A stretch of DNA of 61,894 nt, filler included, from Sphacelaria rigidula (Eukaryota): the NCBI GenBank assembly GCA_964200075.2. It is 2 parts of 2 records of this genome, joined end to end, with 100 filler letters (N's around TTAATTAATTAA, not from the genome) between each part and the next. Parts side by side here need not be neighbours in the genome. Positions count along the whole stretch, not along the records: positions 31,089 to 61,894 come from CAXNAA020000056.1; 1 more part is not named here. One strand, written 5' to 3'. A program made the translations under genes and the position numbers. The notes under the pieces were generated by a model. That model was given only the letters and a program-made list of their open reading frames with translations, did no database searches and was not told the origin of the DNA. Shown here in pieces: positions 41,401 to 53,400 of this stretch (position 1 is the first letter of the stretch; every line of letters begins with the position of its first letter).

Positions 41401-44400
41401 AACTTGAACGAAAGCCCTGAATATGGGCAACAAGCGTAGCACATTTGCTGTTGCTCGCCGTGACTTTGGCACGGCTTTTCCTCTGAAGATGAAGCGACTG
41501 CTGTGCGAAGTTTTCCGTATAGTGCTGCAGCCTTCCCTCGCATGTTTTTTGTCGTTATGTTTGCGTGATGGGTATTGGTGGGACGCACATCGTGCTTCGG
41601 CACTAGAAACACGCTCGTTATTGAAGAGCAAAGTGTGTGGAGATGTTGATCATGCGCGGCAAAAACGGGTCACGAAAATCGTGGCGTGACAACTCGACTA
41701 AATTCTCTCCTGAACAAGCCTGTTGAAAATAACTTGATTGGCGAATCAGCGTTAATTTTCACTGGATTACATTAGCAGCACTGTCTACACCACGTGTCCT
41801 GTACTATCTTGCTGTACTCGACTCATTCTACTGCACTTTACCACTGCACGAATGTTCCCCCAGGAAAGCAAAACGAACGAGGGGTGCTCGGTGCGCTCAA
41901 ATATCGGTGTGTTTATTTGCGGAATCAACGTCACTTTCACTTGAAACATCACTGCGTGACCCCGATGACCTACCCTGGCGGTCAAACGATTCACGAGACT
42001 CTCCACCAGTACAAGACATTGCAGTTGCACTCCATAAGCTGTGGTTTCCCGTCATCCACAATCAGGATTGCCTTTTCTCGAGCGCTGATAGGCTAGGCAG
42101 GCTTGGATTTCGTGTTCACTTGGCATTAGCGTGCATTACGTTTTCCGTGCTGCACCGGCTGAACGGCGTTTTATCTCTCATCCATCAACCGTGTAGTAAA
42201 CTACTGTACTGAAACAGGGACATGTTTCCCCCGCCATTTCTCATGTGCCTTGGGCCTCGATCCGTTGCGCGTGGCGGCGTAAGCCGCCGAAACCTTCGTA
42301 CATATATGATTGAATAATTAAAACAGATAAAACCATCAATGGCCGAGCTGTACAGCATGGCTTCGGGTGTAAAGGCCTTGCGCAGAAAAGCACACACGCT
42401 CGCACACGATGGAAACAACAAGGGCGTGGGACGATATTGCGGCTCAGCTGTTTCGGCCATCCTGTTTGGGCATGAGCTCTTACGCGTGAGCCCCATGGAA
42501 GTAAGGCACCAAACCGCTACTTTTATAACACCGAAGGGAAAGCAACGGCGAGAGTATGAACATCAACAATACAGACACTGCAGTATGAGGTGTGGCAGAG
42601 TATCGGAACTGCGTGTGCATTGTTGTTTCCATCTCTCGCGATCGCGCTTCCAGGAACTAAGCTCTCCAAAGACAATGAAGCCCGAGACATGTGAAATAGA
42701 TTCAAGTTTGCCGAAGAAAAGGAGGAGAAGAAAAAAGGTAGAATACCCCCATCCGACTTACTTGGACTTGTCACCAGGCGGTATCTTGAGAACGTCGGTG
42801 AAAAAATCAAGCAGACCCACAACAAACCCTATGAATGACGTGATGATAGCAACCTCCGAAAAGACCGCAATCAACGGTGACAAGAGCGTGCCGACACCCT
42901 CATCCACATGCGCTCCTTGTCTCAACGCCTGTTATTGTTTCGGGGCACGATATGGCGAGGGGAGGGGCGGGGTGTGTACTACAGTCATGTTCCGCGTTCC
43001 CTTGCTATTGGACCTTTGATCACATATGCAATTCATCGAGTGGGGCATACGGGTGGGGGGGCGCACTCGTTTGCTACTTGCCTTCGTCGTTTGACCGTTG
43101 ACCACGCATCCCTTCCGAGACGGAGCAATACGGCATCCGGGGGGGCGGGGGCGCGGGGGGGAGTGTACTCATGATCTTGCATGTCGTAGTCATGAGATTA
43201 TTGACTTCGCATCCCTGCGAAGCCGGGACGGAGCACGCCGGGTTTTCGCCGGACCAGGCTCGCATCAATCACCAAGCGCGAAGCGCCGTCGTGTGTCCGG
43301 CGAGTCGCATGAAGGACGAGGTACATCCTGCTAAGATTGTTCGGCCCGAAGCCTACTGATTATCTTGCATTTGGATGACAGTATACAATGAGTTGCTTAA
43401 TTTTCTGGTATCGTCACTTTCAGAGACAGCCACGGCTGAACACACTGTCTCATCATGGATGTCTCACCATTTCAACAGTGCGTAGTACGATCATCCCCAT
43501 TGCGCGGAGCTGAGGTTCTCCCACGCCGCACAACATGATCTGGCTCGACCACCATCATGACAACCCTAAAAAGAAACGCAAGCGAAAAATAAAAAACAGG
43601 AACCTGGTGGACTAGCTTACGCAGTGAGTGGCGTATTTTCCACCGTCACTGCCAATCGACGCCAACCCTCAAAGGGAAGCGACGGGGGGAAAGGGGGGGC
43701 GGGGGTAATTTTGATTCGTTGCTTGCCTTGGTCGTTTGATCACAGACCACGCATCCTTTTTGAGACCGAGAACCGTTTCTACTCTTAACGGAGACATCCT
43801 CAACATCCTGGCGCTCATGACGTTTCTTCAATACATTGCTGAAAACCTTTTACATTTTTGATCCCCTTTCTGTTTCGCCGTCCGTGGTCGCCATCTATCT
43901 CCTCGTGTAGCGATTGTTTTCTCGCTGTTTTCTCATAATCCAATGTACGTAACTATTCCATGTCACCTTAATTTAGTTCTCACATTTCACCCTTTGACCC
44001 GTTCCGTTCGTCCTTGTACAGTGGACATTTTCCTTGCAGGGGGGAGGAGCGAGGGAGTGTACTCGTGATCATGCATGCCACAGTCATATGAACATTGGCA
44101 TCCCTACAAAGCCGGGACGAAGTACGCCGGGTTTTCGCCGGACCAGGCTCGCAATCAATCGCCAAGGGCGAAGCGCCGTGGTGTACTCAGCTATTCGCAT
44201 GAAGGGTGAGCTGCATCCTGCTAAAATGGTTCCGCTCGAAGCGTAATGATTATCTTGCATTTGGATGACAGTCTACAATGAGTTGCTTCATTTTCTGTTA
44301 TCGCCAATTCCAGAGGGGGAGGCGTCCCACATTTGTTGCTTGCCATAGTCGTTTGACCATTGACCACGCATCCCTTTCGAGACGGCGCACTCAGTGAGGG

Positions 44401-50400: not shown

Positions 50401-53400
50401 AATAATGATGATAATAATAGTAATAACAATAATAACAATAATAACAATAATAATAATAATAATAATAATAATACAGTTTTACTACTACAATTCTCACCTA
50501 TTGATATTGTTAACCATTTCTTCGCTGAAGAACAGCAGCAAGCTTCCAAGCGCCAGACAGAAGGCCGTCGGTCCAGCCCATTCCGGAACTGCCGATACGC
50601 TTGCGTCAGCTCTATGCGTTGAACAGAAGGATCGCCCCGAACAAGTCGTTCCGAAAACGAGTCACAAACGAACGGACACCAACGCACATCCAATCGTATA
50701 TCTAGCACTCAAAACACGCGGTCTCTACATAAGTGACTCTTATCAAAAAACCCCTCCCCAGAGTAAAATGTTTTCAAAAAAACGGAGGTGTGCAGCCTCG
50801 GTGTTCCCTGCTCTGTTCGCCGCTCACGTTTAATACGACAGGCACGCATGTGCCCTGCGCCCTGGGTATCAACGTGGCAAACCACCACTGCTACGGGTCG
50901 ATGCTGCGCCTTCACAACCCGACAGCAGGTGTCACTTTCTGACCAAAAACATGAGGAAGCGAGTTGGCAAAAATGATATACTTCGATATAAGTTGACGAG
51001 ATGCGGGAGTGTCGCGCTGCTTTATCATAGACTACAAGGCAAACGCTGGGGAGAGATGAGTTGACCTTATCAAACTGCGTATGCAGTCCCGAGAAGGGGG
51101 GGGGACCCTTTGGTCTCCATTGCGGGTTGTCTGTTGCCTGAGAATTAGTTTACTTGATGGACGGACCCACGACCCAGGTAACCCACCCTTCCGGCCAGGG
51201 GGTCAAAACCGTGGCAAAGCGCGCGCACAGGATGATACACAATAGGCACACTAACGTGAAATACTTGTGACACGACCCGCTCCCCGGGTGCATGTAGCGC
51301 CAGGTACGAACGGGTAGGTGATGATAAACAAAAAGCCGTCTATTAAGTCGCCTGCCGTGCCGTGCGCTGTCATCGTCGCGGGGCATGTTTTCTTGTTTCA
51401 AACGACTACTCCGCCTCTTCTTGAATTGAAAATATACTCTCATCATCATCCACTAATATGCCCTTTTCATGAATCTTGATGAGTTGTCGGAAACATTAAG
51501 CGTCTGCAAAAAAAAATGGCACTCACTTTTTTCTCAACGCGCGCACTCGAAGCGCTCATTGGAGTGACAGAGACAGGGGTAAATACAGGCAAATACATGG
51601 GCGGAAATAAGGTATCCTTCAGAACCAGGGGAAACGGACTGTGCGTGTAATGGGTCGAAGTACCTCCTGGTATCAATAGGCTGGTAGCACGCGTCCTGCT
51701 CTTTCTTACCCTGTCCCCAATAACGTTTGCGCCGCTTCGTTGAGCAGCCCCCCTCCTTGTGCCATGTACGCCACCAGCAGAGAGTAGTGGATAAAGACGT
51801 ATACTAACCCTGTAAACCGCGCACCACCTTTGCCCAGAGCCTGCCCAAACAGGAAAATGATTGCGAAAAAGTGGGCGATATATGTCGCCTCTTATCAGCA
51901 AGCCATCGTTGGTGAGGATAGAGAATAAACGGGGGGGGGGAACGAATTTGTGCAAATTCGGTCCAATATTACGTGCTTGTGTCAACTCTTGAACCGCGGG
52001 TCCCGTCTTGAGGCGCTATTTTGGTCACCATCCTCTTCTAGTGTTGCCTAACGTATATTAGCACAATTCTACACCGCCATCGCAGCAGGGTAGGGTGATA
52101 TTGATATCTATGCTTTGCCATGTCTGATGGGTGCAGTATTCTTGGATACATAGAGGGGGCAGGAGGCGACGGCTGCGCAAAGGCACTCCCTTCCTTTGTG
52201 CGCAACGGAATAGCACACTGATCGCTGGGACGAAATGTGAATGTGGACTGATCGCGAGAGTTTCAACAAGTGATTACTTTGCACAGGAACATGATATCAT
52301 TTGTGACCGGTATGTAGTCATGCCGCTCCCCCTCACAACTATCTCAGTGAACAGGCGTTTTGGCTATATTGCAAAAAAAATAAGAATGTCCCAACCCAAA
52401 GTAAGACAGCAGCCACCACCAGTCCGGGTTGGGAGGGGCGTACTCATTTGTTACTTGCCTTAGTCGTTTGACCATCGAACACGCATCCCTTCCGAGACGG
52501 AGCACCAGTCCGGGTGAGGGGGGGGGTAATAATGAGTTTGCATGCCGTCGCCATATGAGTATTTACCTTACACCCCTACAAAGCCGGGACGGAGCACCCC
52601 GGGTTCTTGCTGGACCAGACTCCCAATTAATCACCGAGCGCAAAGCGCCGTGGAGTGTTCGGCCAGTCGCATGAAGGGTGAGCTGCATCCTGCTAAGATT
52701 GTTCGGCCCGAAGCCTACTGATTATCTTGCATTCGGATGGCAGTCTGCAATGAGTTGCTTCATTTTCTGGTATCGCCACTTTCAGAGACAGCAACGGCTA
52801 ACTGCCTCATGGGTGTCTCACCATATAAACACCACGTAGTATGACCATCCCCTTTGCGCGAAATTGAGGTCCTCCCACCCCGCACAATATGATGTAGCTC
52901 GACCACCATCATGGCTACAGTAAAAAAACGCAAGCGTGCGAAACAAATCGGTAACCTGGTTGCATAGCTCAAGCAATGAGTGGCGTGTTTTACAGCGTCA
53001 TTGCAAAACGACCCCCACCCCATAGGGGGTCCGTTCCTACAAAGCCGGAACGGAGCACGCCGGGTTTTTGCCGGGCCAAGCTCGGGGGCAAGGGGGGGGA
53101 CTCATGATCATGCATGCCACAGTCATAAGACCATTGACCTCGCATCCCTACAAAGCCGGGACGGAGCACGCCGGGTTTTCGCCGGACCAGGCTCGAGGCG
53201 AGGGAGGGGGGGGATCCGCAAAATTGAGAAATCAAGCCATAAACGTTTGCATCGATAGACTGATACACGTGAAGGACTAATTCCCCGACAACTTCAAAGT
53301 CAAAACGGTTGAGCCGAGTTCTTGTTAAAAAACAAATATGAGCACTACCGGTTGACACTCTTCTGAAAAACAATGTTTCTCGCCGTTGAAACAAACATGA

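What the first reader, a model, noticed from the sequence alone, without database searches (positions are those of the whole stretch)
43044..53213. G-tract-targeting, C-tailed short retroposon system with target-site duplications
Seen: about 18 pieces of two related families (A and B) occur at 15.9-16.9, 39.9, 43.0-44.8, 46.3-46.6, 49.4 and 52.4-53.2 kb. One end is nearly invariant and abuts a G-run on the plus strand (GGGG..TACTCAT..), so the minus-strand element ends ...ATGAGTAC + C-run. The other end is truncated to different lengths. Several copies are flanked by direct duplications that include the G-run: AACTGGAACCG7 (46485/46546), GCTTTCCG+Gn (49376/49489), CACCAGTCCGGGT (52417/52503) and GGCATMCGGG (43044/43132). 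Established: a fixed 3' end, 5' truncation and a TSD beginning with the tail base are the signature of target-primed reverse transcription, usually A/T-based. From recall, Penelope-like Chlamys elements of green algae form tandem arrays and insert in (C)n or (CA)n tracts. Inference: this is a non-autonomous retroposon primed by genomic G-tracts on a C-rich RNA 3' end and mobilised by an unidentified RT. I do not know of such a system being characterised in brown algae.
Basis: partly seen in the sequence, partly recalled or inferred. Interest (0 to 1): 0.75.

Follow-up and report, generated by a model that had tools for sequence, protein, structure and literature searches.

The report
Brown-algal C-tailed LINE and partner
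These repeats are broken-off ends of a copy-and-paste jumping gene and its short hitch-hiking partner that land in runs of G, a pair matching one already catalogued in the brown alga Ectocarpus, so the finding is real but largely ordinary.

Summary
In detail: 18 pieces lie in the stated intervals, with a fixed 3' end followed by a C-run, variable 5' truncation and target-site duplications (18 of 100 copies against 1.3% in shuffled pairs). The interpretation needs correcting. Family B is not non-autonomous. It is the truncated 3' end of a ~5.9-kb LINE with one ORF (AP endonuclease, RT, C-terminal CCHC), so the mobilising RT is identified and is not Penelope/Chlamys. Family A is its ~565-nt non-autonomous partner, sharing the LINE's last ~75 nt and a 41-nt motif from its 5' end. 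This matches RTEX-1/-2_Ec32 and RTEX-N1_Ec32 of Ectocarpus (PMC12477816: single EN-RT ORF, (C)n 3' end, C-rich TSD, ~600-bp partner sharing 60 bp, tandem copies). An Ectocarpus protein is 74% identical to the ORF. I could not compare DNA with that library or test RTE-X placement by tree. Small additions: two paralogous empty sites hold G4-5 tracts; the ORF stops 7 nt before the tail; A carries a 48-nt non-terminal direct repeat; the shared 5' motif may be a pseudoknot. The chemistry of G-tract priming is inferred, not shown. Verdict: new member of a known kind.

The parts
15924..16407 (-). A copy, nt 72-563 of the 565-nt A profile
   Evidence: 83% to profile
16428..16520 (-). A copy, 5'-truncated (473-565)
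16546..16619 (-). LINE (B) 3' end, 74 nt, cut by an assembly gap
16705..16975 (-). LINE (B) 3' end, 270 nt; encodes the ORF C-terminus (P0001 aa 1281-1360, 65%)
17040..17066 (+). 27-nt A 3' end in the opposite orientation, followed by a C-run
39861..39903 (-). LINE (B) 3' end, 43 nt
43062..43127 (-). LINE (B) 3' end, 66 nt; duplicated flank starts at 43044 and 43132
43163..43668 (-). A copy, nt 63-564, starting at the 41-nt motif shared with the LINE 5' end
43714..44029 (-). LINE (B) 3' end, ~310 nt, encoding the ORF C-terminus
44057..44315 (-). A copy, nt 301-564
44330..44390 (-). LINE (B) 3' end, 61 nt, in a tandem cluster
44406..44471 (-). LINE (B) 3' end, 66 nt, in a tandem cluster
44492..44736 (-). 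A copy, nt 316-560
46340..46481 (-). internal A fragment (74-219), no 3' end
46500..46539 (-). 40-nt A 3' end with a 17-nt exact TSD that includes the G-run (46485, 46546)
49394..49491 (-). A copy 467-565, starting at the inner copy of the 48-nt repeat; duplicated flank at 49376 and 49489
52439..52506 (-). LINE (B) 3' end, 68 nt, with a 13-nt exact TSD (52417, 52503)
52523..53082 (-). full-length A (1-565): 48-nt repeat, LINE 5' motif, unique body, inner repeat, LINE-like tail
53100..53195 (-). A copy 465-560, head-to-tail with the full-length copy
61779..61894 (+). internal LINE RT fragment (P0001 aa 911-948, 82%) running off the window end

Best explanation
B pieces are 5'-truncated copies of an autonomous ~5.9-kb LINE of the brown-algal RTE-X lineage, most likely the counterpart of Ectocarpus RTEX-1/-2. 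Its layout is a 5' motif, a 63-bp tandem array, ~1.5 kb of further 5' UTR, and one APE-RT-CCHC ORF whose stop lies 7 nt before a C-run. A is its non-coding partner (RTEX-N1-like), mobilised in trans through the shared last ~75 nt. Shown: anatomy, C tail, TSDs, G-tracts at two paralogous empty sites, head-to-tail stacking. Inferred: the AP endonuclease nicks the G-rich strand after a short G-tract; the G-ending 3'-OH pairs with the C-run of the RNA and primes reverse transcription, as T-tract and poly(A) do for L1; premature stops give 5' truncation; a staggered second nick gives a ~8-20 nt TSD starting with C. The C-run probably comes from read-through into the donor's own tail, since tails are often mosaic and longer than the empty tract. 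Each insertion leaves a new G/C tract, which explains the tandem clusters.
For: Loci extend from B into CCHC, RT and APE coding sequence. The majority profile has one 1378-codon stop-free frame with SWNV, IQE, GDFN, DHCL, AQG, FADD and CPCGx7HxxxxC. Intact homologues at 69-79% carry RVT_1 and Exo_endo_phos. Ectocarpus protein CAB1110456.1 is 74% identical over 783 aa to the C-terminus. PMC12477816 lists single EN-RT ORF, (C)n 3', C-rich TSD, 5511-5867 bp, and a 604-607 bp partner with a shared 60-bp 3' end, weak 5' homology to RTEX-2 and tandem copies. Here: 5931 bp, 565 nt plus tail, 73% over the last 60 nt, a 41-nt 5' motif, 31 of 32 tandem pairs. TSD enrichment. A C5 run upstream of the 5' end in 43 of 73 non-tandem copies against a 2% baseline. 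Insertions L015 and L016 fall at G4-5 tracts of another repeat whose empty copies were aligned. The three closest relatives with a visible 3' end (L116, L117, L120) end in the same motif plus C8-10. The RTE tail-base/TSD-base correlation is published (PMC6007223 abstract).
Against: No DNA comparison with the Ectocarpus library was possible (FASTA supplements unreadable) and no tree with labelled RTE-X references was built. Only 15-18 of 100 copies show a scorable TSD; copies are ~10% diverged and C-only duplications cannot be scored. A and B are 73% alike over the last 60 nt against 83% reported for the Ectocarpus pair, so A's true partner could be a sister LINE family (L120's tail looks more A-like). 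No orthologous empty site was seen: two other samples hold a junction of the 49.4-kb insertion. 30 of 73 non-tandem copies lack an upstream C5 run, and L006 has a 10-nt TSD without a C-run, so targeting is a preference only. No nicking or priming step was tested.
Confidence: 0.88

Rival explanations
1. A and B are non-autonomous pieces moved by a Penelope-like Chlamys element that targets (C)n/(CA)n repeats.
For: Chlamys insert at (CA)n and (C)n and form partial tandems (PMC8557442 passages). Chlamys families exist in Ectocarpus. 8 of 100 copies have CA repeats at the 3' junction. A has a terminal/sub-terminal repeat loosely like a pseudo-LTR.
Against: B is itself the 3' end of an APE-RT LINE with no GIY/YIG motif. 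A shares both ends with that LINE. Clear TSDs are present. Ectocarpus Chlamys-1 is listed with an (A)n 3' end. No CTGANGA hammerhead core on either strand of A.
Confidence: 0.02
2. No real G-tract targeting: the C-run is only an element-encoded or slippage-made tail, insertion is nearly random, and C-rich 5' flanks come from stacking and microhomology.
For: At L015 the filled site has a ~28-nt G-rich tract where empty copies have G4-5, so much of the tail is added. 30 of 73 non-tandem copies lack an upstream C5. L006 has a TSD without a C-run.
Against: 43 of 73 non-tandem copies have C5 within 30 nt upstream of the 5' end against 2% by chance. TSDs carry the C-run on both sides. Both paralogous empty sites examined are G-tracts.
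Confidence: 0.12
3. A is a true Pol III SINE with a small-RNA-derived head, not a bipartite Pol II non-autonomous LINE.
For: Fixed 5' end in 21 of 56 3'-intact A copies (biased sample), non-coding body, LINE-like tail. The shared 5' motif recalls a tRNA D-arm (from memory, untested).
Against: No A-box or B-box pattern match, and two T8 runs at nt 136 and 155 that should stop Pol III. No tRNA. No Rfam hit at gathering score in the window, and none on the element in four full-length loci at E<=5. The motif comes from the LINE's 5' end.
Confidence: 0.07
4. A and B are imperfect terminal inverted repeats of a DNA transposon.
For: One inverted piece (17040-17066) lies near a cluster.
Against: 31 of 32 adjacent pairs are direct; B encodes a LINE ORF C-terminus.
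Confidence: 0.005

Closest known systems
RTEX-1_Ec32 / RTEX-2_Ec32 (Ectocarpus RTE-X LINEs; PMC12477816, main-text passages and supplementary file 1 part 1)
   Same: Single EN-RT ORF, (C)n 3' end, C-rich TSD, similar length (5511-5867 bp against 5931 here); Ectocarpus proteins 62-78% identical to this ORF.
   Different: Copies here are ~10-12% diverged from their profile and mostly broken. The 63-bp 5' array and the stop codon 7 nt from the tail are not mentioned in the parts I read. DNA identity not testable.
RTEX-N1_Ec32 (604-607 bp non-autonomous partner)
   Same: Size, shared ~60-bp 3' end, weak homology to the LINE 5' end, C-rich TSD, tandem copies, very high abundance.
   Different: 565 nt plus tail; 73% rather than 83% to the LINE over the last 60 nt. 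The 48-nt non-terminal direct repeat and the exact 41-nt shared motif are not in the parts I read.
Bipartite non-autonomous LINEs and RTE-related SINEs (PMC5786205 passages; PMC6007223 abstract)
   Same: Keep the LINE's 5' and 3' parts; the first TSD base matches the tail repeat.
   Different: Those tails are short microsatellites with T-starting TSDs; here the tail is C. A also has ~360 nt not found in the LINE profile and a 48-nt extension in front of the LINE 5' motif.
Penelope-like Chlamys elements (PMC8557442 passages)
   Same: Bias for (C)n/(CA)n tracts, 5' truncation, tandem insertions.
   Different: N-terminal GIY-YIG endonuclease and telomerase-related RT; here the endonuclease is APE and the RT is LINE-type.
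Human LINE-1 ORF2p (best PDB match, E 7e-21)
   Same: APE-RT-CCHC layout; homopolymer-primed TPRT logic (established knowledge).
   Different: L1 has ORF1, a poly(A) tail and T-tract priming; similarity is limited to the RT region.

Membership tests
APE-type non-LTR retrotransposon (LINE) | AP endonuclease plus RT in one ORF | tested here: met
   Motifs in the profile ORF; Pfam RVT_1 and Exo_endo_phos in 69-79% homologues; RVT_1 at E 1.6e-6, just under the cutoff, in a genomic fragment
APE-type non-LTR retrotransposon (LINE) | fixed 3' end, 5' truncation, variable-length TSD | tested here: met
Ectocarpus RTEX-1/-2 | single EN-RT ORF, 5.5-5.9 kb | tested here: met
   5931-nt profile with one 1378-codon frame
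Ectocarpus RTEX-1/-2 | (C)n 3' end and C-rich TSD | tested here: met
Ectocarpus RTEX-1/-2 | sequence similarity to the named consensus | not testable with these tools
   FASTA supplements cannot be read; indirect support from unnamed Ectocarpus proteins at 62-78%
RTE-X clade | RT phylogeny groups with Repbase RTEX | not testable with these tools
   No labelled RTEX sequence was obtained; the assignment rests on the paper's best-blastp notes
RTEX-N1-like partner | ~600 bp, ~60-bp 3' end shared with the LINE, weak 5' homology, tandem copies | tested here: met
   (73% over 60 nt; 41-nt motif 76-88%; 31 of 32 tandem)
Pol III SINE | A and B boxes or small-RNA head; no internal T-run | tested here: not met
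Penelope-like / Chlamys | GIY-YIG endonuclease | tested here: not met
   APE motifs present, no GIY/YIG/RIY
LINEs with a 5' HDV-like or hammerhead ribozyme | ribozyme fold at the 5' end | tested here: inconclusive
   My crude HDV and hammerhead descriptors found nothing, Rfam nothing; divergent or unknown ribozymes are not excluded
DNA transposon | terminal inverted repeats around a transposase | tested here: not met

The most novel reading that the evidence does not exclude
The 41-nt motif shared by the 5' ends of the LINE and of A is a functional RNA pseudoknot (a 7-bp and a 4-5-bp stem with an A-rich loop), acting as an undescribed self-cleaving ribozyme or protein-binding module that sets the RNA 5' end. 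With a 3' recognition signal lying inside coding sequence and G-tract/C-tail priming, this would make brown-algal RTE-X a distinct TPRT variant and would answer the paper's open '5' head unknown'. Of 6 differences between A and the LINE in the motif, 2 keep stem-1 pairs by Watson-Crick/wobble exchange, 3 fall in loops and 1 breaks a terminal pair; none is a two-sided compensatory change.
Probability: 0.1. Interest if true: 0.6.

Novelty: new member of a known kind. Interest (0 to 1): 0.2.

Why it matters
As a discovery it matters little: the element pair, its C tail and its C-rich TSD are already catalogued in Ectocarpus, though the tail and TSD appear only in a supplementary table among the parts I read. 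The residual value is mechanistic. A LINE that appears to prime on G-tracts with a C-run, with no poly(A) at any scored junction, is a clean natural test of the idea that tail-target pairing sets TPRT site choice. The mapping of A's shared 5' motif partly answers the authors' stated unknown about its 5' region.

Tried and rejected
Rfam at gathering score on the window: 0 hits. Rfam at E<=5 on four full-length A loci: 4 weak hits, all outside the element. ARAGORN: none. Folding of seven A and LINE ends: z from -1.5 to +1.1, no significant nested structure; pseudoknots are not modelled. HDV and hammerhead descriptors: none. LTR-like regeneration of A's 48-nt repeat: rejected, 2 shared variants within 20 copies against 2.95 permuted, and one position differs between the two repeats (G in 13 of 20 5' copies, 1 of 20 inner copies). 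Orthologous empty sites in other samples: four contig sets laid on 45100-50200 showed no joint across either insertion among the rows shown (348 rows not shown); contigs show presence, not absence. No RNA holder listed. Earlier scan findings: none by words or by sequence. Six answered paper searches: the listings showed only PMC12477816 describing this system and no title on C-tail/G-tract TPRT; the library omits most subscription journals and Repbase reports. PMC4421812 mentions an RTEX-1 in Saccharina without its ends in the passages seen. The 2025 3D-genome preprint has no RTEX/RTE mention. PMC5753468 and PMC11203168 passages gave no defining features of RTEX beyond grouping with RTE.
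Full report
OBSERVATION. There are 20 pieces in the window; 18 lie in the stated intervals, all on the minus strand, and 17 of them keep the 3' end. The four quoted duplications are present verbatim. Both families are abundant in the 244-Mb genome: first-look candidates were 6390 for A, 3910 for the B end and 552 for a piece 3-4.5 kb upstream in the LINE. These are not copy numbers, but the gradient fits 5' truncation.

STATISTICS. From the window and loci L001-L115 there were 283 hits, 224 after de-duplication and 121 with an intact 3' end; 100 were evaluable after dropping 21 with short or N-containing flanks. Exact TSDs (8 nt or more, 4 or more non-C) were found in 15 of 100 against 2.4% (maximum 5%) in shuffled flank pairs. 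A mismatch-tolerant score of 6 or more gave 18 of 100 against 1.3%. A C5 run follows the 3' end within 15 nt in 76 of 100 copies; an A6 run in none. In 43 of 73 non-tandem copies a C5 run also precedes the 5' end, against a 2% baseline, so the tract is usually part of the duplicated target. Adjacent copies are head-to-tail in 31 of 32 pairs. The sample is biased to long copies because the loci were top hits.

B IS A LINE. Followed 5' on the minus strand, B runs into a CCHC knuckle, RT and AP-endonuclease coding sequence. A majority profile from 20 loci is 5931 nt with one stop-free frame of 1378 codons carrying the expected APE, RT and CCHC motifs and no GIY-YIG. Intact database homologues are 69-79% identical and hit RVT_1 and Exo_endo_phos; their clusters include Ectocarpus proteins, one 74% identical over 783 aa up to the C-terminus. 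The stop codon lies 7 nt before the C-run, so the shared 3' signal is coding sequence. A defined 5' end was seen in 9 of 15 loci examined, followed by a 63-bp array of 7-42 units. 19 of 65 3'-intact B copies stop 59-67 nt from the end; this hot spot is unexplained.

A IS ITS PARTNER. A is 565 nt plus tail. Its last ~75 nt are homologous to the LINE end (73% over the last 60 nt). Its nt 63-103 match a 41-nt motif 16 nt inside the LINE's 5' end at 76-88%. Its first 48 nt are repeated at 466-513; the two repeats are not homogenised within copies, so this is a fixed feature of the master rather than an LTR-like cycle. No Pol III boxes were found and two internal T8 runs are present; there is no tRNA or Rfam match. 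A therefore resembles a bipartite non-autonomous LINE as defined in PMC5786205 (passages), with extra sequence.

TARGET. Two A insertions fall in a third repeat whose empty copies could be aligned (30 loci). At L016 the empty site has a G4 tract and the flank is duplicated. At L015 the empty site has G4-5 and the filled site a ~28-nt G-rich tract, so the target needs only a short tract and part of the tail is brought or added. L006 shows a TSD with no C-run. No orthologous empty site was seen in four other contig sets. Of 80 metagenome relatives I inspected 21: the three closest with a visible end (88, 75 and 52% protein identity) finish with the same terminal motif plus C8-10, and the 52% one is followed by an A-like short element; a 40% relative ends in (TTTA)n. 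The C tail thus looks lineage-restricted.

MECHANISM. Shown: anatomy, tail, TSDs, G-tract preference and stacking. Inferred from established L1-type TPRT and from the RTE tail/TSD correlation (PMC6007223 abstract): nicking after a G-tract, priming on the RNA's C-run, premature termination, a staggered second nick, and trans-mobilisation of A through the shared tail. The source of the RNA's C-run (read-through into the donor tail versus slippage) is a guess.

WHAT IS KNOWN. PMC12477816 (main-text passages; supplementary table part 1 of 3) describes Ectocarpus RTEX-1/-2 as single EN-RT ORF elements of 5511-5867 bp with (C)n 3' ends and C-rich TSDs. It describes RTEX-N1 (604-607 bp, more than 6000 copies) as sharing a 60-bp 3' end at 83%, with weak homology to the RTEX-2 5' end, tandem copies and an undetermined 5' origin. 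These descriptors fit, apart from the lower 3' identity. The FASTA supplements could not be read, so identity with the named families and RTE-X placement are inferred, and those files may already show the details I list as additions. The Chlamys recollection is accurate for (C)n/(CA)n bias (PMC8557442 passages) but does not apply.

VERDICT. Real, well explained, and a new member of a known kind. The remaining open points are the untested chemistry of G-tract priming, the function of the shared 41-nt 5' motif (a possible pseudoknot, weakly supported), the 48-nt repeat and the truncation hot spot. Interest 0.2.

Noticed in passing
window 47621-47802 and 45836-45987 (minus strand): One contig of a probable RNA run joins these two pieces as adjacent exons. 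The first translates cleanly and hits Trp_Tyr_perm weakly (E 2.9e-4, below cutoff). The A pieces at 46.3-46.6 kb lie in that intron, in the gene's orientation.
   Followed up: partly
window 48713-48826, 23100-23217, about 51040-51090: A third repeat family (903 first-look candidates) ends in A-rich or (TAA)n tails in many copies; probably the 3' end of another LINE such as RTE. It served as the empty-site reference.
   Followed up: partly
LINE 5' UTR, e.g. L102:1997-4657, L106:3477-4247: 63-bp tandem array of 7-42 units between the LINE's 5' motif and its ORF.
   Followed up: partly
B copies at 43062-43127, 44330-44390, 44406-44471, 52439-52506 and in loci: 19 of 65 3'-intact B copies begin 59-67 nt from the 3' end: either a short sub-family or a structural stop for the RT.
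   Followed up: no
L120:2659-2805: A distant relative (52% protein identity) ends in a C-run followed directly by an A-like short element (79% to A 483-548), so the LINE and partner pairing is old.
   Followed up: partly
window 19642-19995, 25720-26085, 61426-61782: Another ~360-bp repeat in three copies at 74-83% identity; not examined.
   Followed up: no
window 31371-31416: Interstitial (TAACCC)n tract of 7.7 units, telomere-like.
   Followed up: no
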